A stretch of 64,000 nt of DNA from an uncultured Candidatus Bathyarchaeia archaeon. Its GTDB lineage: Archaea; Thermoproteota; CALKCG01; B24; DRYS01. The notes under the pieces are model-generated. The model was not told the DNA's origin. It saw only the letters and a program-made list of their open reading frames with translations, and searched no databases. The stretch lies in contig CAZBGY010000002.1 in the NCBI GenBank assembly GCA_964491605.1, positions 82,829 through 146,828 of the forward strand. The letters run 5' to 3'. Each line of letters opens with the position of its first letter. The first letter of the stretch is position 1. The translations under genes were made by a program, and so were the position numbers. Of the stretch, positions 45,711 through 51,587 are shown piece by piece.

Positions 45711-46997
45711 ATGGGGACTATCGTAAGCGAAGCTAAGAGAGGTGTCATACCTGATATCGTAGTCGAAGCAGCTAGGTTGGAAGGTATCGACCCGGATAGG
45801 CTTAGAGGCATGGTTGCTAGAGGAGTGGCTGTTATCCCGTACAATTCGTCTAGAGGCAGGAAGTTGAGTAGGGTTGTAGCTATAGGGGAGAGGTTAACCG
45901 TGAAGGTAAACGTTAACGTCGGCACCTCGACCGATATATCCGATCCAGATCTGGAGCTTGAGAAGGCGAGGATCGGTTTAAGGTATGGAGCAGATACTAT
46001 TATGGATTTATCTACTGGAGGCGATCTAGATTATGTTCGTAGATTACTTATCAAAGAGTTGGATGCACCTATAGGTACGGTACCTATCTATCAAGCCGCT
46101 ATAGAATCTATGAGGAGGCATGGATCCATCATAGATATGAGCGAGGATGACATATTGAATACTATCGAGAAGCATTTTAGGGATGGAGTCGACTTCGTTA
46201 CGCTTCATTGTGGTATCACGTATAACGCTCTAGAATCGTTAAAGAAAATTGGGAGAATCGCGGGTATAGTTAGCCGTGGAGGAGCTTTCGTAGCATCTTG
46301 GATGTTGCACCATGGTAGGGAGAATCCGTTATACGAGAATTATGATTACATACTTGAGTTAGCTAGAGAGTATGATGTATGTATAAGTTTAGGTGATGGA
46401 CTTAGACCTGGATGCATATCGGATGCGAACGATCTAGCTCAGAATATGGAGTTATTAACCGTAGCCGAGCTCGTAGAGAGGAGTAGGAGGATGGATGTTC
46501 AATGTATGGTTGAAGGCCCAGGTCATATGCCTATACATCAGATAGCGGCTAACGTGGCTTTAGAAAAGGCTGTATGTAGAGGCGCTCCATACTACCTCCT
46601 AGGACCTATAGTTACAGATATAGCTACCCCGTACGATCATATAGCGGCTGCGATCGGAAGTGCTATAGCTGGACTCGCCGGTGCAGATTTCCTATGCGTG
46701 GTTACACCATCCGAGCATTTGGGTCTACCGCTACCGGAAGATATAAAGCAGGGGGTTATAGCTTCCAAGATCGCTGCACATGCTGTGGATATATATAGAG
46801 TCGGAGAGAAAGCTATGAGTATCGATAAAGCTATGGGAGAAGCTAGAGCACGCTTAGACTGGATAACGCAATTCAAGCTATCAGTAGACCCAGATAGAGC
46901 TTCAGAAATTCATGGAAGAGTGAAGGCTAGAAGCGGCGCATGCACTATGTGTGGAGATTATTGCGTCTATAGGATACTGAAAAGATTCTATGCATAG
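45711..46997 (+). CDS. thiC: Phosphomethylpyrimidine synthase (radical SAM, ThiC)
   Basis: DTIMDLSTGG, TVPIYQA, VEGPGH and the C-terminal CTMCG..C motif. Confidence 0.95.
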   Translation: MGTIVSEAKRGVIPDIVVEAARLEGIDPDRLRGMVARGVAVIPYNSSRGRKLSRVVAIGERLTVKVNVNVGTSTDISDPDLELEKARIGLRYGADTIMDLSTGGDLDYVRRLLIKELDAPIGTVPIYQAAIESMRRHGSIIDMSEDDILNTIEKHFRDGVDFVTLHCGITYNALESLKKIGRIAGIVSRGGAFVASWMLHHGRENPLYENYDYILELAREYDVCISLGDGLRPGCISDANDLAQNMELLTVAELVERSRRMDVQCMVEGPGHMPIHQIAANVALEKAVCRGAPYYLLGPIVTDIATPYDHIAAAIGSAIAGLAGADFLCVVTPSEHLGLPLPEDIKQGVIASKIAAHAVDIYRVGEKAMSIDKAMGEARARLDWITQFKLSVDPDRASEIHGRVKARSGACTMCGDYCVYRILKRFYA

Positions 46998-47163
46998 CGG
47001 GTGGTTATCTCCCCCTAAAACCATACCTCACGATAATTTTAGGATAATCTGATGGCTACTCCATATATCGATAGTTATCTGAAAGCTTTTTATCTTATCT
47101 ATCCATTAACCGCAGAATAAGGTCGAGGTTCATGAGAAAATCTATCGTTTGGGGGGTGGATTT

Positions 47164-48141
47164 ATGGATAGATTTCGAGTGGTGGTAACAGCTCCGATAC
47201 ATAGTGAAGCGCTCGATCTACTCAGAAAAGAGGCGGATGTGCATATATTCGAAAAACCGCCGACTGAAGATGAGCTTATAGAATCTGTGAGGGGCGCTGA
47301 TGCTATACTCGTAACGCTTAACGTAGAGAGGGTGAGTAGGAGGGTTATAGAGTCTGCATCTAGACTTAGAGTGATAGCTAGGCATGGAGTAGGATACGAT
47401 AACGTAGACGTTGAAGCAGCTACCGAGAGGGGGGTTTGGGTTACGATAACACCGGTTCTCCACGAAACGGTAGCGGATATGGCTTTCTCGCATATATTAT
47501 GTTTAGCTAGGAATATCTGTAAAGCGTCACAGTATGTTAAATCTAGATCTTGGAAGATTAGGGATCCGTTCGTATTCGCAGGTGTGGATGTATGGGGTAA
47601 GGTTATAGGTATCATAGGGCTTGGAAGGATAGGGGCGGCTATAGCTAAACGTGCAAAAGGATTCTCTATGAAGATACTATACTATGATATAGTTAGGAAG
47701 CCTTCACTGGAGATAGAGCTTGAAGCAGAGTATAGATCGTTAATGGATCTGCTTAGAGAATCCGACTTCGTAGTAGTATCATGCCCGTTAACCGAGCATA
47801 CACGTGGTATGATAGGGGAAGATGAGCTTAAACTCATGAAACCTACAGCTATTTTGATCAATATAGCTAGAGGACCTATAGTGGATCACGACGCCCTCGT
47901 GAGAGCTTTGAGGGAGGGATGGATAGCCGGAGCTGGCTTAGACGTATTCTGGCAAGAACCTCTACCCTTAGACGATCCGTTATTAGATCTTGATAACGTA
48001 ATACTAACCCCGCATATAGCCTCTAATACGATAGAATGCAGGAGGAGAATGGCTTTAACAGCCGTCGAGGAGATTCTCAGAGTCTTGCATGGAGAGAAAC
48101 CTAGATACCCTGTAAACGATGTATCGAGAAAACCTAATTAA
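47164..48141 (+). CDS. D-isomer-specific 2-hydroxyacid dehydrogenase (glyoxylate/hydroxypyruvate reductase-like)
   Basis: NAD-binding GIIGLGRIG, INIARG..VD and TPHIAS. The ATG at 47164 follows GGGGGGTGGA. Confidence 0.85.
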   Translation: MDRFRVVVTAPIHSEALDLLRKEADVHIFEKPPTEDELIESVRGADAILVTLNVERVSRRVIESASRLRVIARHGVGYDNVDVEAATERGVWVTITPVLHETVADMAFSHILCLARNICKASQYVKSRSWKIRDPFVFAGVDVWGKVIGIIGLGRIGAAIAKRAKGFSMKILYYDIVRKPSLEIELEAEYRSLMDLLRESDFVVVSCPLTEHTRGMIGEDELKLMKPTAILINIARGPIVDHDALVRALREGWIAGAGLDVFWQEPLPLDDPLLDLDNVILTPHIASNTIECRRRMALTAVEEILRVLHGEKPRYPVNDVSRKPN

Positions 48142-48276: not shown

Positions 48277-48420
48277 AAGCTATAGTTGCATACGAGTGTG
48301 CTTCCATTAACACCCAGATTTTGGGTATCATAGCTAGACCGTGAAACTATGGAGATAAAAGTTTTTAAATTAGCGATGGGGATGCTTTTTTAGCCCCGTT
48401 AAGGGGGAGGGGTTAAAACT

Positions 48421-48528
48421 ATGTTCAGATTCGAGGAAGAGGAAGAAGAGGAAGAATGGGAGGAAGAATGGGAAGAGGAAGAATGGGAGGAAGAGGAGTG
48501 GGAGGAGGAAGAGGAAGAAGAATGGTGA
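48421..48528 (+). CDS. Micro-ORF encoding a 35-aa poly-Glu/Trp peptide (MFRFE8WE3WE4WE4WE7W)
   Basis: The ATG is preceded by GGGGGAGGGG (48403-12) at 8-nt spacing. All five TGG triplets are in one codon phase within a (GAR)n tract. The stop is TGA 48526-28. All three forward frames are open here, so coding status is inferred rather than proven. Confidence 0.4.
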   Translation: MFRFEEEEEEEEWEEEWEEEEWEEEEWEEEEEEEW

Positions 48529-48612
48529 TCTAACTCCCAAACCTCTGTCTACCTATCTCATTTTTCTTTCCTTTACGCTTCGCATTATAGTAAGCGATTT
48601 TAGGTGGTGGTT

Positions 48613-50412
48613 ATGGTTGGTAGGGTAGCTGTGATCGATAGGGATAGCTGTCGCATCGAGGATTGCGGGCTACTATGTAGACGTTTATGCCCGCTTGTTA
48701 GGAATAAGATCGAAGCTGTGAAGGTAGATGATAAGGGTAGGCCCGTGATAGCTGAGGAGCTATGTATCGGGTGTGGTATATGCGTTAATAGATGCCCGTT
48801 TAAAGCTATATCGATAGTCAACCTTCCAGGGGAGCTTGAAGACGAGTGTATCCATAGGTATGGGGTTAACGGGTTTAAGCTATTCAGGCTACCCGTACCG
48901 GCTAAATCTACGGTTTTAGGTCTTGTAGGTAAGAATGGGGTGGGTAAATCCACATCTCTCCGTATACTTGCGGGTAAGCTTAAACCTAATCTAGGTGTAG
49001 TCGAAGGGGATCCACCTGATTGGGATTCAATAATAGAATATTTTAGCGGTACATTTCTCAAGGAATATTTTAGCAAGCTTGCCTCAGGGGAGCTTAGGGT
49101 AGCATATAAGCCTCAGTATGTCGATTTAATACCTAGAGCATTCAGAGGAAAGGCTGGTAAGCTTCTATCTAAGCTGGATGAACGCTGTATACTCGATGAA
49201 CTTAAATCAGTCCTCGAATTAGAGGAGGTCATGGATAGGGAGGTAAACGTACTCAGCGGCGGAGAGCTTCAAAGAGTAGCTGTAGCAGCGGTGGTATGTA
49301 GAGATGCTGATGTATATATATTCGATGAGCCCTCAAGCTATCTAGACGTACGTCAGAGGCTTAGAGTAGCTAGGGTTATTAGAGAATTAGCTAAACAGGA
49401 TGTTATGATCGTTGTAGCTGAACACGACCTGATAGTTCTAGATTATATGTCGGATATGGTATCAGTTTTGTATGGCGATCCTGGAATCTACGGCATCGTA
49501 TCGTATCCTAGAGCTGTTAGAGATGGAATAAACATGTTTTTAGAGGGATATATTCCAAGCGAAAACATGAGGTTTAGAAGTCAACCTATAAGGTTTCAAG
49601 TTAAACCACCTACGCAGACCTTGGAATCTACGAATATAGCATATAGCTGGGGTTATATGGTTAAGAAGCTTGGAGGATTCACTTTAAGAGTGGAGGCTGG
49701 ATTTATACGTACGGGTGAGGTTATAGGTATACTCGGACCGAACGGTATCGGTAAAACTACGTTTGTTAAGCTTCTAGCAGGATTAGAGAAGCCTGATGAA
49801 GGAGATACTCTACCTGGAGGTATAAGGGTGAGCTATAAACCTCAGTATATATCTGGAGATTATGAGGGGACAGTCGAGGTATTCTTGAAGAAGACTATAG
49901 GCGATAGGATAGAGTCGAGCTTCCTTAAAGAGGAACTCTATAGACCCTTTAAGCTGGATAAGATACTAGATAGGAGGGTATCGGATTTAAGCGGTGGAGA
50001 ATTACAGAAGCTAGCTATATCCGTATGCTTAGCTGCGGATGCAGATATATATCTGCTCGACGAGCCTAGTGCGTATCTAGATGTGGAGGAGAGGTTAGCT
50101 ATGGCTAAAGCGGTCCGTAGGATCGTAGAGAATCTTGGTAGAGTTGCTTTCGTCGTAGAGCATGATATACTAGTCCAGGATTTCATAGCAGATAGGCTTA
50201 TGGTGTTTTCAGGTATACCAGGGGTTGAAGGGTATGGATATAAACCTACCGATATGAGGAGCGGTATGAATATGTTCCTTAAAGAGCTTGGGATAACGTT
50301 TAGAAGGGATAGGCAGACCTATAGGCCTAGAGCAAATAAGGAGGGTTCGAGGTTGGATAGGATGCAGAAGGAGCTCGGCGAATACTATTATATGACGATC
50401 GAGGAGGAGTAA
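48613..50412 (+). CDS. abce1: ABCE1 / RNase L inhibitor homolog (ribosome recycling ATPase)
   Basis: N-terminal Fe-S domain (AVIDRDSC...CPL...CIGCGICVNRCP) plus two ABC domains (GKNGVGKST, LSGGELQR, GPNGIGKTT, LSGGELQK). The ATG at 48613 follows AGGTGG. Confidence 0.95.
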   Translation: MVGRVAVIDRDSCRIEDCGLLCRRLCPLVRNKIEAVKVDDKGRPVIAEELCIGCGICVNRCPFKAISIVNLPGELEDECIHRYGVNGFKLFRLPVPAKSTVLGLVGKNGVGKSTSLRILAGKLKPNLGVVEGDPPDWDSIIEYFSGTFLKEYFSKLASGELRVAYKPQYVDLIPRAFRGKAGKLLSKLDERCILDELKSVLELEEVMDREVNVLSGGELQRVAVAAVVCRDADVYIFDEPSSYLDVRQRLRVARVIRELAKQDVMIVVAEHDLIVLDYMSDMVSVLYGDPGIYGIVSYPRAVRDGINMFLEGYIPSENMRFRSQPIRFQVKPPTQTLESTNIAYSWGYMVKKLGGFTLRVEAGFIRTGEVIGILGPNGIGKTTFVKLLAGLEKPDEGDTLPGGIRVSYKPQYISGDYEGTVEVFLKKTIGDRIESSFLKEELYRPFKLDKILDRRVSDLSGGELQKLAISVCLAADADIYLLDEPSAYLDVEERLAMAKAVRRIVENLGRVAFVVEHDILVQDFIADRLMVFSGIPGVEGYGYKPTDMRSGMNMFLKELGITFRRDRQTYRPRANKEGSRLDRMQKELGEYYYMTIEEE

Positions 50413-50465: not shown

Positions 50466-51587
50466 TTGAAGATATCTCGGAATAGCCTTGCGAAGCTTGA
50501 GACGGAATATAGAGGTTATCTTGAAGGCGAGCTACTAGATAGATTCTTCAAGGATTTCGATATAAAATTCGCAGCTGGACATTGGTCTGCAGGAGATTTC
50601 ATCGATAGATTCGCTACGAAGGGATACTTCCCAGAGTTGGATTCCAGCATAGAAGCTCAGCTTAGAAGGATAGCTGAGGCAGGTATAGAGGGGGTTGAGT
50701 TCCATGATGTACTCTTCCTAGATGAGAACTTGAAGATATCTGAAGATAGGGTTACGAAGATTAGATCTATCCTAGAGGAGCTAGGTATCAGAGTATCCAA
50801 TATGAACGTCAACATGTTTACCGATCCTAGATGGAAGCTTGGATCCGTGACGAACCCTATAAGAGAAGTTAGGGAGAAGGCTTTCGAAGTATTACTGCAA
50901 GCTGCGGATCTAGCTAGAGAGATGGGGAGCCCTAGTCTAAGCTTATGGCCAGGTCAAGATGGGTGGGATTACAATTTTGAATCCAACTACCTACGTAAAT
51001 TTGAATGGTTCCTAGATGCATGCATACAAGCTTCGAAGAGATGTAGGGAGCTAGGTCTTAAATTCGGTGTAGAAGCTAAACTTAAAGAGCCGAAGGAGGG
51101 GAATATGATAGTTCCTACCACCCATCTAGCTGGATGGATAGCATACAAGGTAAACGAGGAGATCGGATCTAAGGTTATGGGTGTAACTATAGATTACGGT
51201 CATGAGCAGATGTATGCCGTCGAACCTGCATTCACGGTATACACATTGCATAGTATGGGTGTACCTATAGTAGGGTTCCACATAAATACGGCTAAGCTGC
51301 ATAGTAACGATGAAGATAGAGTATTCGGGACAGGAGATATATGGCGCTTCATAGATTACCTATATGCAGCTGTAGATATAGGTTACGATGGATGGTTCGG
51401 AGAAGATCAATTCACCTACAGGATGGACCCCGTCAAAGCTATGAAGCTTAGTAAAGAGATATTCGGAAACCTTATGAAGAAAGCTCTACTAATATACGCT
51501 AGAAAGGAGGAGCTGGAGGGAGCTAGGGAGACAGGTGATCAAGCTAAGGTAATTGATATAGTTAAGAAGATAATACTCACCGGTTGA
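50466..51587 (+). CDS. Xylose-isomerase-like TIM-barrel sugar isomerase/epimerase
   Basis: 373 aa with AP-endonuclease 2 / xylose isomerase-like barrel features (FHD, ...E.K.KEP, DYGHE). Substrate unknown. Confidence 0.65.
   Translation: MKISRNSLAKLETEYRGYLEGELLDRFFKDFDIKFAAGHWSAGDFIDRFATKGYFPELDSSIEAQLRRIAEAGIEGVEFHDVLFLDENLKISEDRVTKIRSILEELGIRVSNMNVNMFTDPRWKLGSVTNPIREVREKAFEVLLQAADLAREMGSPSLSLWPGQDGWDYNFESNYLRKFEWFLDACIQASKRCRELGLKFGVEAKLKEPKEGNMIVPTTHLAGWIAYKVNEEIGSKVMGVTIDYGHEQMYAVEPAFTVYTLHSMGVPIVGFHINTAKLHSNDEDRVFGTGDIWRFIDYLYAAVDIGYDGWFGEDQFTYRMDPVKAMKLSKEIFGNLMKKALLIYARKEELEGARETGDQAKVIDIVKKIILTG

What the first reader, a model, noticed from the sequence alone, without database searches (positions are those of the whole stretch)
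48403..48612. Poly-Glu/Trp micro-ORF with a strong SD directly upstream of the ribosome-recycling ATPase ABCE1: candidate leader-peptide sensor or stalk-tail mimic
Seen in sequence: the ATG at 48421, 8 nt after GGGGGAGGGG (48403-48412), opens a 35-codon ORF, MFRFEEEEEEEEWEEEWEEEEWEEEEWEEEEEEEW, with stop TGA at 48526-28. It is too short for the supplied track. The DNA is a ~95-nt (GAR)n purine tract interrupted only by five TGG triplets. All five sit in the same codon phase (spacings 4, 5, 5 and 8 codons). GAA and GAG alternate irregularly, so variation sits at the synonymous position of the Glu frame. A TATA-like TTTTTAAATTA (48363-73) lies ~50 nt upstream. The ORF ends 84 nt before the ABCE1 ATG (48613), and the spacer carries a pyrimidine tract (TTTTTCTTTCCTTT, 48561-74) that could partly pair with the purine tract. 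Established knowledge: ABCE1 splits archaeal and eukaryotic ribosomes during recycling and rescue. In bacteria, acidic runs and Trp-containing arrest peptides destabilise or stall ribosomes, and such leader ORFs regulate downstream genes (mgtL, tnaC, secM). The acidic/hydrophobic C-terminal tail of the archaeal P-stalk has been reported to contact ABCE1. Inference, hypothesis a: the micro-ORF is a hard-to-translate leader whose stalling or abortive termination reports ribosome-rescue capacity and tunes ABCE1 expression. Hypothesis b: the peptide itself is an acidic-aromatic mimic of the stalk tail or of nucleic acid. Caveat: all three forward frames are open across the tract (the others read RK-rich and RG-rich), so the signal could instead act at the RNA or DNA level, for example as a polypurine H-DNA or an SD-like sponge.
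Basis: partly seen in the sequence, partly recalled or inferred. Interest (0 to 1): 0.8.

Follow-up and report, generated by a model that had tools for sequence, protein, structure and literature searches.

The report
Conserved acidic Trp-repeat microprotein beside ABCE1
The 35-codon Glu/Trp reading frame is a real, previously undescribed tiny protein gene that archaea of several phyla, including the lab model Sulfolobus acidocaldarius, keep next to the ribosome-splitting ATPase ABCE1, so it probably encodes an unknown helper of protein synthesis rather than a chance ORF or a simple leader peptide.

Summary
In detail: ATG 48421 to TGA 48526-28 encodes MFRFE8WE3WE4WE4WE7W, preceded by a TATA-like box and an SD, 84 nt upstream of a bona fide ABCE1 gene (NF009945). 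It is not chance. The same kind of ORF, M-hydrophobic-(E/D 3-5, W)n ending in W-stop and 22-36 aa long, lies upstream of ABCE1 in 45 of 80 related genomes. A motif-first metagenome scan found ABCE1 just downstream at 70 of 88 such short ORFs. Carriers include Bathyarchaeia, Sulfolobus acidocaldarius, Sulfurisphaera, Acidianus, Metallosphaera and Hyperthermus. A 48-aa relative in Nanoarchaeota sits in an aIF2beta-NMD3-aIF1A cluster. Substitutions keep acidity (53 Asp codons against 4 purine-only non-Glu codons) and Trp, which points to selection on the peptide, not the purine tract. Most loci have their own TATA and SD, an oligo-T tract after the stop, and a separate conserved TATA for ABCE1. 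In some genomes other genes intervene or the ORF has moved. The leader-peptide model is therefore disfavoured, though not excluded for the window's clade. The most likely reading is a trans-acting acidic/aromatic microprotein working with ABCE1 or the 30S initiation machinery. Its function is inferred only. No Pfam, NCBIfam, PDB or literature match was found.

The parts
48362..48372 (+). TATA-like box (TTTTTAAATTA) of the microprotein gene, preceded by GGAGATAAAAG
   Evidence: The block GGAGATAAAAGTTTTTAAA is identical in the two closest relatives, L011 and L067, while the surrounding intergenic DNA is only 65-69% identical. A TTTAAA-type box lies about 50-60 nt before the start in most orthologous loci (78/104). 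Its promoter function is inferred from motif and position and is not measured.
48394..48420 (+). Predicted short 5' UTR with a small hairpin (CCCCGTTAAGGGG, 48394-48406) and the Shine-Dalgarno-like GGGGGAGGGG (48403-48412), 8 nt before the ATG
   Evidence: In 97 of 104 distinct orthologous loci an SD-like motif, usually the perfect GGAGGTGA, precedes an ATG/GTG/TTG just before the acidic run.
48421..48528 (+). Microprotein gene, 35 codons plus TGA: MFRFEEEEEEEEWEEEWEEEEWEEEEWEEEEEEEW
   Evidence: The peptide is identical in L011 and L067 despite 12-15 nucleotide differences in 108 nt. All are silent: they are third-position GAA/GAG changes plus a TGA/TAA stop change. No antisense frame has a conserved ORF or SD.
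48529..48580 (+). Pyrimidine-rich 3' region containing the T5-led tract TTTTTCTTTCCTTT (48561-48574); a likely oligo-T transcription terminator that can also pair with the purine tract
   Evidence: A run of at least five T occurs in 90/104 orthologous spacers, at a median of 29 nt after the stop, against 10/104 length-matched ABCE1 coding controls. The window's predicted fold pairs part of the purine tract with this region (MFE -65.4 kcal/mol, z = -1.97). The duplex energy is -53.8 kcal/mol in the window but weak in other clades. Terminator function is inferred.
48584..48590 (+). Weak TATA-like ATTATAG, 29 nt before the ABCE1 ATG; a possible ABCE1 promoter in this clade
   Evidence: Most Bathyarchaeia have a much clearer conserved box, GGTTCATATTTATAAC, 33-42 nt before the ABCE1 ATG. 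In the window clade the element is poorly conserved, so this part is uncertain.
48602..48610 (+). SD-like AGGTGGTGG just upstream of the ABCE1 start, conserved in L011 and nearly so in L067
   Evidence: Its presence means the ABCE1 mRNA of this clade may carry a leader, which keeps co-transcription with the microprotein gene possible.
48613..50412 (+). ABCE1 / RLI ribosome-recycling ATPase (599 aa)
   Evidence: NF009945 equivalog, 871.8 bits. Fer4 plus two ABC_tran domains. 88% identical to L011/L067 and 45-64% to the other loci. The ATG at 48613 fits the M-x-(x)-R-V/I-A-V N-terminus of the orthologues; the ORF listing starts the ORF at GTG 48604.

Best explanation
The ORF at 48421-48528 is a genuine, translated gene for a very acidic microprotein. 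The family has the form Met, one to five mostly hydrophobic residues (often Phe), then repeats of 3-5 Glu/Asp followed by Trp, ending in a C-terminal Trp, for a total of 22-36 aa. It is an ancient genomic partner of ABCE1 in Thermoproteota (Bathyarchaeia, Sulfolobales, Desulfurococcales), and a longer relative occurs in Nanoarchaeota next to initiation-factor genes. In most carriers it looks like its own small transcription unit. It has a TATA box and a strong SD (or a leaderless start), a short oligo-T/CU-rich terminator-like tract, and is followed by a separate ABCE1 promoter.

The most likely mode of action is in trans. The disordered polyanionic peptide would dock its regularly spaced Trp side chains and its free C-terminal Trp into hydrophobic pockets flanked by basic residues. 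The target would be ABCE1 and/or the 30S-bound recycling-to-initiation machinery (ABCE1, aIF1A, aIF2). There it would modulate factor binding or ABCE1 ATPase and release. This is how the acidic Trp-containing N-terminus of eukaryotic eIF3j and the acidic/hydrophobic tail of stalk protein aP1 contact ABCE1 NBD1.

What is shown: the existence of the ORF, its conservation, peptide-level selection, the gene neighbourhoods and the promoter/terminator motifs. What is inferred: translation, separate transcription, the trans action and the identity of the partner.
For: 1. Conservation. An equivalent ORF lies on the same strand upstream of ABCE1 in 42 of 80 ABCE1 loci from named genomes, with three more variants.
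2. Unbiased linkage. A metagenome scan for the DNA motif W-x-W-[DE]4-W-stop returned 120 loci. Of the 88 short ORFs with downstream sequence, 70 have an ABCE1 start within 700 nt. The ABCE1 copies are only 45-64% identical to the window's.
3. Cultivated species. The ORF is present in S. acidocaldarius (upstream of saci_0672), Sulfurisphaera ohwakuensis, Acidianus manzaensis, Metallosphaera javensis and Hyperthermus butylicus.
4. Peptide-level selection. The last 18 codons of 41 distinct orthologues contain 524 Glu, 53 Asp (pyrimidine-ending), 136 Trp and only 4 purine-only non-Glu codons. Entropy at codon positions 1/2/3 is 0.36/0.41/1.14. In the window clade there are 12-15 silent differences and no replacements. 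An SD plus start codon is found in 97/104 loci. No antisense frame is conserved.
5. Independence from position. The upstream neighbour changes (Asparaginase_2, 2-hydroxyacid dehydrogenase, AdoHcy hydrolase and others) while the ORF-ABCE1 pair persists. An EamA-like membrane ORF, a Zn-ribbon ORF or a probable antisense C/D sRNA can lie between them. In L172/L181 the order is ABCE1-FBPase-TIM-ORF followed by a convergent gene, and in L124 it is TFB-Ogg-ORF followed by a convergent gene, so there the ORF is a leader of nothing.
6. A second translation-linked context. In Nanoarchaeota (Nst1_021 and relatives) a 42-49 aa protein ending in WEEE(E)W sits in an aIF2beta-DUF424-NMD3-[ORF]-aIF1A cluster.
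7. Own expression signals. T>=5 runs occur in 90/104 spacers against 10/104 controls. A strict TATA lies 20-70 nt before ABCE1 in 61/104 against 3/104 controls. A BRE/TATA block is conserved in 23 Bathyarchaeia, and no conserved RNA structure is found.
8. Precedent. The eIF3j N-terminus reaches the NBD1/NBD2 cleft of ABCE1 at a site similar to that of the aP1 C-terminal peptide (PMC7780240). The eIF3j acidic motif is centred on a Trp next to EEEE (PMC2824034). The aP1 tail EEEVSEEEALAGLSALFG binds ABCE1 NBD1 with a Kd of 3.9 uM (PMC6125642).
Against: There is no direct evidence that the peptide is made or that it binds anything.

- No ABCE1 alignment column co-varies with presence or absence of the ORF.
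- The ORF is missing within about 4 kb of ABCE1 in one Bathyarchaeia subclade and in Tiamatella, and within 1.5 kb of it in Saccharolobus shibatae. It is therefore either dispensable or relocated there; whole genomes could not be scanned.
- An N-terminal run of acidic residues is the kind of sequence reported to destabilise translating ribosomes in bacteria and yeast (10.1101/2021.02.02.429294, PMC9718836). Efficient synthesis is therefore not guaranteed.
- In the window's own clade the ABCE1 TATA is weak, an SD-like motif precedes the ABCE1 ATG and the spacer is only 84 nt, so a bicistronic transcript is possible.
- Homology between the Thermoproteota and Nanoarchaeota forms rests on a low-complexity tail and could be convergence.
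Confidence: 0.5

Rival explanations
1. Cis-acting regulatory upstream ORF. The poly-acidic, Trp-punctuated nascent chain is hard to translate, through intrinsic ribosome destabilisation or arrest. The fate of ribosomes on it (completion, abortive splitting or stalling) would set transcription read-through past the T-tract, or translation of ABCE1 on a shared mRNA. ABCE1 supply would thereby be coupled to ribosome-rescue capacity.
For: - The position is immediately upstream and on the same strand in about 80% of carriers.
- The acidic run starts at residue 2-6, which is the configuration reported to cause intrinsic ribosome destabilisation. Bacterial twin-ABC ABCF proteins and eukaryotic recycling factors deal with such sequences (PMC11162784, PMC9718836, PMC12673854).
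- In the window clade the spacer is short and there is an SD-like AGGTGGTGG before the ABCE1 ATG. The purine tract can pair with the CU-rich terminator region (duplex -53.8 kcal/mol, fold z = -1.97).
- In some Thermoprotei the spacer is only 45-60 nt.
Against: - A conserved BRE/TATA for ABCE1 and an oligo-T tract lie between the two genes in most loci.
- In S. acidocaldarius a T6 run follows the stop by 10 nt, and an ATAAATA box sits about 28 nt before the ABCE1 GTG, the geometry of a leaderless mRNA.
- There is no conserved spacer RNA structure, and purine:pyrimidine pairing is weak outside the window clade.
- Spacer length ranges from 29 to 495 nt.
- The ORF survives intact where other genes intervene, where it lies downstream of ABCE1, or where it is unlinked or next to aIF1A.
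Confidence: 0.2
2. A trans-acting polyanionic peptide whose partner is not ABCE1 or the translation apparatus. It could be a generic buffer or chaperone for polyamines, metal ions or basic nucleic-acid-binding proteins, or a nucleic-acid mimic. On this view the ABCE1 linkage is historical synteny.
For: Extreme charge and low complexity. No co-variation with ABCE1. The adjacent copy has been lost in some lineages. Some unlinked contexts are unrelated to translation: TFB-Ogg in L124 and DUF433/UPF0175 neighbours in L191.
Against: Linkage to ABCE1 survives across lineages whose ABCE1 proteins are only 45-60% identical and whose other neighbours differ. The independent Nanoarchaeota context is again translation-related: aIF2beta, NMD3 and aIF1A. 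The strict C-terminal Trp and the Trp periodicity argue for a specific docking interaction.
Confidence: 0.12
3. Fe-S maturation adaptor signal. The free acidic-Trp C-terminus would act like the C-terminal Trp of eukaryotic Lto1 or the [LIM]-[DES]-[WF]-COO- client tripeptide. It would recruit an Fe-S delivery machine to the two [4Fe-4S] clusters of ABCE1.
For: Eukaryotic Rli1/ABCE1 specifically needs the Yae1-Lto1 adaptor, whose conserved C-terminal Trp binds the CIA targeting complex (PMC4523923). CIA clients carry [LIM]-[DES]-[WF]-COO- (PMC10245660). The microprotein ends in [DE]-W-COO- in nearly all members.
Against: Position -3 is Glu/Asp, not Leu/Ile/Met. Some members end in M, K or T (L034, L036, L038, P0001). 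The peptide has no deca-GX3 or other client-binding module. The CIA targeting complex is eukaryotic, and no archaeal counterpart was examined here. The Nanoarchaeota context (aIF2beta, NMD3, aIF1A) has no Fe-S client.
Confidence: 0.06
4. A nucleic-acid-level element, such as polypurine H-DNA, an SD-like ribosome sponge or a structured RNA, with an incidental ORF.
For: The tract is 95% purine, all three sense frames are open, and it is GGAG/GAGG-rich.
Against: Acidic character is kept at the expense of purine content: 53 GAT/GAC codons against 4 purine-only non-Glu codons, and Gly is mostly GGC. TGG is always in one phase, and the start, SD and stop are conserved. Rfam gave no family at gathering score and only sub-threshold plant miRNA hairpin matches. 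No conserved structure was found.
Confidence: 0.03

Closest known systems
eIF3j / Hcr1 N-terminal acidic motif (eukaryotic ABCE1-associated recycling and initiation accessory factor)
   Same: It is an acidic stretch built around conserved Trp residues; the yeast motif includes W37, D38 and EEEE40-43 (PMC2824034). The eIF3j N-terminus reaches the NBD1/NBD2 cleft of 40S-bound ABCE1 and was proposed to modulate its ATPase. eIF3j sits between ABCE1 and eIF1A on the small subunit (PMC7780240). The archaeal peptide is genomically tied to ABCE1 and, in Nanoarchaeota, to aIF1A and aIF2beta.
   Different: eIF3j is a protein of roughly 30 kDa with a dimeric six-helix bundle and a C-terminus that enters the mRNA channel, and it binds the eIF3b RRM. 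Archaea have no eIF3. The archaeal product is only 22-36 aa and consists of nothing but the acidic/Trp repeats. Alignment to the Hcr1 N-terminus (sequence from memory) is not better than composition (z <= 2.2). This is an analogy, not a membership claim.
C-terminal tail of archaeal ribosomal stalk protein aP1 (P1/P2 in eukaryotes)
   Same: It is an acidic run followed by hydrophobic anchor residues at the extreme C-terminus, and it is intrinsically disordered. It binds a surface cavity on ABCE1 NBD1 (Kd 3.9 uM), and stalk-dependent ABCE1 ATPase activity on the ribosome drops sharply when the aP1 tails are deleted. The same tail also binds the translational GTPase factors (PMC6125642).
   Different: The stalk anchors are Leu/Phe in an L/GxxLF motif that forms a helix. 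Here the anchors are Trp every four to six residues and the very last residue is Trp. The stalk tail is tethered to the ribosome, whereas this peptide is free and would more likely compete or pre-load than recruit.
DSS1/Sem1 and CSNAP (small acidic disordered proteins with aromatic anchors that tether PCI complexes)
   Same: They are free-standing, very small, highly acidic and intrinsically disordered, with conserved Trp/Phe anchors. They act as stoichiometric glue or mimics in large complexes (PMC8442969).
   Different: They are eukaryote-only, and no PCI partners are known in these archaea. The similarity is compositional. Only the S. acidocaldarius peptide aligns to human DSS1 above shuffled controls (z about 3.5); its close relatives do not (z 0.1-1.2). 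HMMER finds no PDB match.
Bacterial regulatory leader or arrest peptides (MgtL, TnaC, SecM) and intrinsic ribosome destabilisation sequences
   Same: It is a tiny ORF directly upstream of a gene. An N-terminal acidic run of this kind aborts translation in bacteria and yeast. The peptide sequence is conserved at the amino-acid level.
   Different: Terminator- and promoter-like elements lie between the ORF and ABCE1 in most carriers. There is no conserved alternative RNA structure. The ORF is retained when separated from ABCE1.
Lto1 C-terminal Trp / CIA client tripeptide [LIM]-[DES]-[WF]-COO-
   Same: An acidic residue followed by a C-terminal Trp, in a factor dedicated to ABCE1/Rli1 (PMC4523923, PMC10245660).
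   Different: Position -3 does not fit the motif. There is no deca-GX3 domain. The receptor complex is eukaryotic.

Membership tests
ABCE1 / RLI (the downstream gene) | N-terminal 2x[4Fe-4S] domain plus twin ABC ATPase domains; match to the curated equivalog model | tested here: met
   NF009945, 871.8 bits against a cut-off of 469, covering residues 4-595. Fer4 and two ABC_tran stretches.
Regulatory leader / arrest peptide (TnaC, SecM, MgtL type) | The ORF lies within the 5' leader of the regulated gene's own transcript, with no terminator or promoter in between | tested here: inconclusive
   Motifs only. T>=5 runs occur in 90/104 spacers and a strict TATA lies 20-70 nt before ABCE1 in 61/104, with a conserved BRE/TATA block in Bathyarchaeia. 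This argues against a shared leader in most carriers. The window clade has a weak TATA and an SD-like motif before ABCE1. TSS mapping is needed.
Regulatory leader / arrest peptide (TnaC, SecM, MgtL type) | Obligatory position immediately upstream of the regulated gene wherever the ORF exists | tested here: not met
   The ORF is retained with other genes in between (L018/L030/L040, L114, L192), downstream of ABCE1 and followed by a convergent gene (L172/L181), unlinked (L124), or next to aIF1A/NMD3 (L084, L107, L118, L206).
Regulatory leader / arrest peptide (TnaC, SecM, MgtL type) | Conserved alternative RNA structures or overlap linking ORF translation to downstream expression | tested here: not met
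   RNAalifold on 23 spacers predicts 0 pairs. Purine:pyrimidine duplex potential is strong only in the window clade.
Regulatory leader / arrest peptide (TnaC, SecM, MgtL type) | Ribosome stalling or abortive termination on the peptide | not testable with these tools
   This needs Ribo-seq, toeprinting or in vitro translation.
Ribosomal stalk P1 C-terminal tail | Acidic linker ending in the hydrophobic L/GxxLF(G) motif, attached to a P0-binding dimerisation domain | tested here: not met
   Read directly from the sequences. No Leu/Phe terminal motif is present, members end in E4-W, and there is no N-terminal domain (22-36 aa in all). The motif is as defined in PMC6125642.
eIF3j / Hcr1 | Six-helix-bundle dimerisation core and a basic C-terminus entering the mRNA channel | tested here: not met
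   The peptide is 35 aa and entirely acidic/Trp. There is no Pfam or NCBIfam hit.
eIF3j / Hcr1 | N-terminal acidic motif centred on a conserved Trp | tested here: inconclusive
   The pattern is present by eye (W flanked by E/D), but alignment to the Hcr1 N-terminus is no better than shuffled controls (z -0.5 to 2.2).
DSS1 / Sem1 / CSNAP | Sequence similarity beyond composition to the conserved DSS1 acidic/aromatic sites | tested here: not met
   Only S. acidocaldarius scores z about 3.5. Sulfurisphaera, L110, L158, Bathyarchaeia and the window score z 0-1.5. There are no PDB hits at E <= 10. The DSS1 sequence was verified against the PDB.
CIA client / Lto1 C-terminal signal | [LIM]-[DES]-[WF]-COO- tripeptide | tested here: not met
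   Positions -1 (W) and -2 (E/D) fit, but -3 is E/D rather than L/I/M. A few members end in M, K, T or V. The motif is from PMC10245660.
LysW / ArgW amino-group carrier proteins | Zn-ribbon globular domain with a C-terminal acidic tail ending in Glu (EDWGE-type); this definition is from my own knowledge | tested here: not met
   No Cys/His residues and no globular part; the terminal residue is Trp. There is no Pfam or NCBIfam hit.

The most novel reading that the evidence does not exclude
The microprotein is a missing archaeal co-factor of ABCE1. It would be a free-standing acidic/Trp peptide that binds the NBD1 surface used by the stalk tail (and, in eukaryotes, approached by the eIF3j N-terminus), or the neighbouring 30S/aIF1A/aIF2 surface. 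It would control ABCE1's ATPase cycle and its release from the post-splitting 30S subunit, coupling ribosome recycling to initiation. On this view it is the archaeal functional counterpart, and possibly the evolutionary forerunner, of the acidic-aromatic tails of eukaryotic factors such as eIF3j and eIF1A. A further twist is that its own hard-to-translate poly-acidic sequence could make its abundance report ribosome stability.
Probability: 0.2. Interest if true: 0.9.

Novelty: new variant of a known kind. Interest (0 to 1): 0.78.

Why it matters
ABCE1 is universal and essential in archaea and eukaryotes. How its ATPase cycle is tuned on the ribosome, and what releases it from the small subunit before initiation in archaea, remain open as far as I know. 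This gene is conserved across Thermoproteota with a probable relative in Nanoarchaeota, is almost entirely unannotated, and is welded to ABCE1 and to initiation-factor genes. That makes it a concrete new candidate player in these steps.

The gene is present in Sulfolobus acidocaldarius, just upstream of saci_0672. Knock-out, tagging, Ribo-seq and biochemistry with an easily synthesised, intrinsically fluorescent peptide are therefore immediately feasible.

It is also a clear example of a deeply conserved microprotein that protein databases miss. It is absent by exact match from a 15-billion-sequence collection and invisible to HMMER because of composition filters. It is also a natural test case for how archaeal ribosomes translate an N-terminal poly-acidic sequence.

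Tried and rejected
- **Protein-database searches for the peptide.**
  - A profile search of 5.8 billion clusters gave only 4 tiny unnamed hypotheticals, because poly-E words saturate the candidate list. The first attempt failed on the 40-aa minimum.
  - phmmer against 1.84 billion representatives gave 0 hits.
  - Exact look-up of 7 family members found none in the collection.
  - Pfam, NCBIfam and PDB gave nothing.
- **Literature.** Five searches, including literal strings such as WEEEEW, found no description.
- **Rfam.** No family at gathering score over the window. Near the ORF there were only sub-threshold plant-miRNA hairpin matches, which are chance consequences of the purine:pyrimidine hairpin.
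- **Co-variation between ABCE1 residues and ORF presence.** None found.
- **Homology to DSS1/Sem1.** An eye-catching S. acidocaldarius alignment (z 3.5-4.3) is not reproduced by relatives, so it is rejected as compositional.
- **Antisense hydrophobic ORF (48370..48540, F/L/P-rich).** Its codon substitutions would also be conservative. However, no antisense frame has a conserved start, length or SD, so it is rejected.
- **Read-through or fusion with ABCE1.** The two ORFs are in the same frame in the window, but two stops intervene and the spacing is not frame-conserved in relatives, so this is rejected.
- **Conserved attenuator-like RNA structure in the spacer.** None found.
- **Complex structure prediction.** Not attempted, because the structure tool takes single chains and only window-derived sequences.
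Full report
**1. Observation**

The sequence is as described. GGGGGAGGGG lies at 48403-48412 and the ATG at 48421. The ORF has 35 codons, MFRFEEEEEEEEWEEEWEEEEWEEEEWEEEEEEEW, with TGA at 48526-48528. The tract 48433-48525 is 93 nt with 88 purines. Its only pyrimidines are the T of five in-phase TGG codons. TTTTTCTTTCCTTT is at 48561-48574 and the next gene starts at 48613. The TATA-like TTTTTAAATTA is at 48362-48372, one base left of the stated position.

The next gene is ABCE1. It matches NCBIfam equivalog NF009945 at 871.8 bits against a cut-off of 469, with an N-terminal Fer4 domain and two ABC_tran domains. The next most purine-rich 93-nt stretch on the + strand of the window has 70 purines. 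Rfam and tRNA scans of the window found nothing.

**2. Origin of the window and recurrence of the ORF**

ABCE1 relatives fetched from one genome per species show that the window is from a hot-spring Bathyarchaeia lineage. The closest loci are L011 and L067 (88% ABCE1 identity); the rest are about 50-61% identical.

A six-frame scan found a short Glu/Asp+Trp ORF on the same strand upstream of ABCE1 in 42 of the 80 loci. Three further variants exist: L002 is 15 aa, L017 lies 1.6 kb upstream, and L046 lacks the terminal W. Carriers include nearly all sampled Bathyarchaeia orders and Metallosphaera javensis. The typical form is M-x(1-5)-(E/D)3-5-W repeated three to five times and ending WEEEEW-stop, 22-36 aa long.

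A search that started from the motif rather than from ABCE1 gave 120 metagenome loci (DNA pattern for W-x-W-[DE]4-W-stop). Of the 88 short ORFs with enough downstream sequence, 70 have an ABCE1 start within 700 nt. These ABCE1 proteins are only 45-64% identical to the window's.

An NJ tree of 124 ABCE1 sequences places carriers in two deep clades. One is Bathyarchaeia and the other is Thermoprotei-like and contains Metallosphaera. The Hadarchaeota, Methanomassiliicoccales and Thorarchaeota loci lack the ORF within the fetched flanks (about 4 kb). So do Tiamatella and one Bathyarchaeia subclade.

Fetching ABCE1 loci of cultivated species showed the ORF in four more genomes:
- Sulfolobus acidocaldarius: (M)VFEEDWEEEFEEFEEEEDWEEEEDWEEEW, 49 nt before ABCE1 = saci_0672
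- Sulfurisphaera ohwakuensis
- Acidianus manzaensis
- Hyperthermus butylicus: MKWILLEEEEEWWEEEEEEEWWEEEEEEEEWEEEEW

It is absent at that position in Saccharolobus shibatae.

**3. It is a coding gene selected at the peptide level**

- In the last 18 codons of 41 distinct orthologues there are 524 Glu, 53 Asp, 136 Trp and 15 Gly (11 of them GGC). Only 4 codons are purine-only but not Glu.
- Entropy at codon positions 1/2/3 is 0.36/0.41/1.14. Acidity is kept even where that breaks the purine tract, which argues against an H-DNA, SD-sponge or RNA-only element.
- Within the window's clade the 35-aa peptide is identical in three genomes. They differ at 12-15 of the 108 nt (all silent) while flanking DNA is 60-69% identical.
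- 97 of 104 distinct loci have an SD-like motif, usually the perfect GGAGGTGA, at the right distance from an ATG/GTG/TTG.
- The N-terminus is conserved as M-(hydrophobic)-F in many lineages.
- The reverse-complement frame would also show conservative changes (F/L/I/V/P). However, no antisense frame has a conserved start, length or SD.

**4. Anatomy of the locus**

Upstream of nearly every copy is a TTTAAA/TTTATA-type box about 50-60 nt before the start. In the window clade the block GGAGATAAAAGTTTTTAAA is identical in all three genomes.

After the stop, 90 of 104 spacers contain a run of at least five T, at a median of 29 nt downstream. Only 10 of 104 length-matched coding controls do. Oligo-T is the usual archaeal termination signal (established knowledge).

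A strict TATA hexamer lies 20-70 nt before the ABCE1 start in 61 of 104 spacers against 3 controls, peaking at 33-42 nt. An alignment of 23 Bathyarchaeia spacers conserves only two features: the T-tract and a BRE/TATA-like block GGTTCATATTTATAAC. RNAalifold finds no conserved pairs.

In S. acidocaldarius a T6 run follows the stop by 10 nt. An ATAAATA box sits about 28 nt before the ABCE1 GTG, the geometry of a leaderless mRNA. Spacer length ranges from 29 to 495 nt.

These are motif-level inferences. They indicate two adjacent transcription units in most carriers.

The window clade is the least clear case. It has only a weak ATTATAG 29 nt before the ATG, an SD-like AGGTGGTGG at 48602-48610 and an 84-nt CU-rich spacer. 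That spacer can pair extensively with the purine tract (MFE -65.4 kcal/mol, z = -1.97; duplex -53.8 kcal/mol). In other clades the pairing is weak and explained by composition.

**5. The ORF does not depend on its position relative to ABCE1**

The gene upstream of the pair varies. It is Asparaginase_2 in 28 Bathyarchaeia, a 2-hydroxyacid dehydrogenase in the window clade, AdoHcy hydrolase in Metallosphaera, tRNA-Arg in Sulfolobaceae, and at least nine others.

Other genes can also sit between the ORF and ABCE1:
- an 85-aa EamA-like membrane ORF in L018/L030/L040
- a Zn-ribbon ORF in L114
- a conserved block that looks like an antisense C/D-box sRNA in seven loci

In L172/L181 the order is ABCE1-FBPase-TIM-ORF, followed by a convergent gene. 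In L124 it is TFB-Ogg-ORF, again followed by a convergent gene. In those genomes the ORF cannot be a leader of anything, yet it is intact.

**6. A second, independent translation context**

In L084, L107 and L118 (and, by their near-identical peptides, probably L174 and L194) a 43-49-aa ORF lies between an NMD3-family gene and aIF1A. An example is MDWEDLKRRLGELRMESEEDEDEDWDEDFGEEDWGESEDWEEDWEEEEW.

Searching with it found nine small unnamed or 'uncharacterized' proteins, including Nst1_021 of Candidatus Nanobsidianus stetteri. Its locus reads MCM, a 201-aa ORF with no Pfam hit, aIF2beta, DUF424, NMD3 and then the microprotein. ArgRS and uS10 follow further downstream.

Whether this form is homologous or convergent cannot be settled from a low-complexity tail. 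Either way, the neighbourhood again points to the small-subunit initiation and recycling machinery.

**7. Mechanism**

Shown: a conserved, peptide-selected micro-ORF with its own expression signals, tied to ABCE1 and to initiation-factor genes.

Inferred: the product is a disordered polyanion with Trp anchors and a free C-terminal Trp. It would act in trans on ABCE1 and/or 30S-bound factors. Three precedents support this reading:
- The aP1 stalk tail EEEVSEEEALAGLSALFG binds a cavity on ABCE1 NBD1 (Kd 3.9 uM), and stalk-dependent ABCE1 ATPase activity on the ribosome drops sharply when the aP1 tails are deleted (PMC6125642).
- The N-terminus of eIF3j/Hcr1 contains an acidic motif centred on Trp next to EEEE (PMC2824034). 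It reaches the NBD1/NBD2 cleft of 40S-bound ABCE1 at a similar site and lies near eIF1A (PMC7780240).
- DSS1/CSNAP show that free acidic/aromatic microproteins can be stoichiometric parts of large complexes (PMC8442969).

None of these is a family to which the peptide belongs (see the membership tests). No ABCE1 residue co-varies with ORF presence.

**8. Rivals**

The cis-leader model keeps some weight, about 0.2. N-terminal acidic runs destabilise translating ribosomes in bacteria and yeast, and ABC-type and recycling factors deal with them. The window clade's architecture also allows co-transcription. The evidence in sections 4 and 5 goes against it as the general explanation.

A generic polyanion role, an Lto1-like Fe-S targeting role and a nucleic-acid-level element are less likely.

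**9. Novelty**

- No Pfam, NCBIfam or PDB match was found.
- phmmer over 1.84 billion proteins gave no hit.
- None of seven members is present by exact sequence in the 15-billion-protein collection.
- Only a handful of 'hypothetical' or 'uncharacterized' entries exist.
- No paper was found.

I rate it a new variant of a known kind: a free-standing archaeal version of the acidic/aromatic ligands known as tails of translation factors and as DSS1-type microproteins. Interest is high because it is deeply conserved, attached to an essential and much-studied factor, and testable in a genetic model.

Noticed in passing
L132, L135, L137, L153, L160, L164, L173 (spacer between micro-ORF and ABCE1); similar block in L203 about 1400-1420: There is a conserved ~18-nt block GCCGTCACCAYTCATCAT. 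Its reverse complement begins ATGATGA (a C box), and in L132 it is followed by ATGAGTGA and CTGA. This is probably a C/D-box sRNA gene of about 55 nt on the opposite strand, between the micro-ORF and ABCE1. Rfam reports nothing there at gathering score.
   Followed up: partly
L084 9303-10342, L107 4953-5994, L118 184-1199, L206 1138-3147: A Nanoarchaeota cluster reads aIF2beta-DUF424-NMD3-like-[acidic/Trp 42-49 aa protein, Nst1_021 family]-aIF1A. The small protein has a conserved non-repetitive N-terminus, MDWEDLKRRLGELRM.
   Followed up: partly
L201-L205 (Sulfolobales ABCE1 loci): In all four Sulfolobales loci (L201, L202, L204, L205) the gene order ABCE1-class V FBPase (PF01950)-eS17 is conserved, and a Urm1/ThiS-like gene follows in three of them. 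L201 and L202 also have tRNA-Arg(CCG) upstream on the opposite strand. In L172/L181 the micro-ORF sits after FBPase and TIM instead of before ABCE1.
   Followed up: no
L082/L122/L169, L098/L140/L182, L091/L196, L094, L099, L126, L131, L189, L190, L200: The motif scan also picked up ORFs unrelated to the micro-ORF family, mostly longer ones (about 100-350 aa), whose C-termini end in acidic/Trp repeats (for example ...WDDDDWDDDDW-stop and ...WEEQHRWEEDDW-stop). These may reflect a more general 'acidic tail ending in Trp' signal in other organisms. Their identity and taxonomy were not examined.
   Followed up: no
L018 3718-3972, with equivalents in L030 and L040: An 85-aa membrane ORF with a weak EamA-like match is inserted between the micro-ORF and ABCE1 in one Bathyarchaeia subclade.
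   Followed up: partly
window 48370-48540 (- strand): A 56-aa F/L/P-rich antisense ORF overlaps the micro-ORF. All six frames are open across the tract because of its composition. The antisense ORF is not conserved in relatives and is judged an artefact.
   Followed up: yes
window 48394-48406: A small hairpin, CCCC-GUUAAG-GGGG, lies in the predicted 5' UTR and overlaps the first four G of the SD-like GGGGGAGGGG. It is nearly conserved in L011 and L067 and could modulate initiation.
   Followed up: no
window 48604 vs 48613: The mechanical ORF list starts ABCE1 at GTG 48604, but the orthologues' N-termini (M-x-(x)-R-V/I-A-V) support ATG 48613.
   Followed up: yes
window 45711-48141 and 50466-51587: The flanking genes are ThiC (PF01964), a D-2-hydroxyacid dehydrogenase (PF02826/PF00389) and a xylose-isomerase-like TIM-barrel protein (PF01261). 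None is conserved next to the pair in other lineages.
   Followed up: yes
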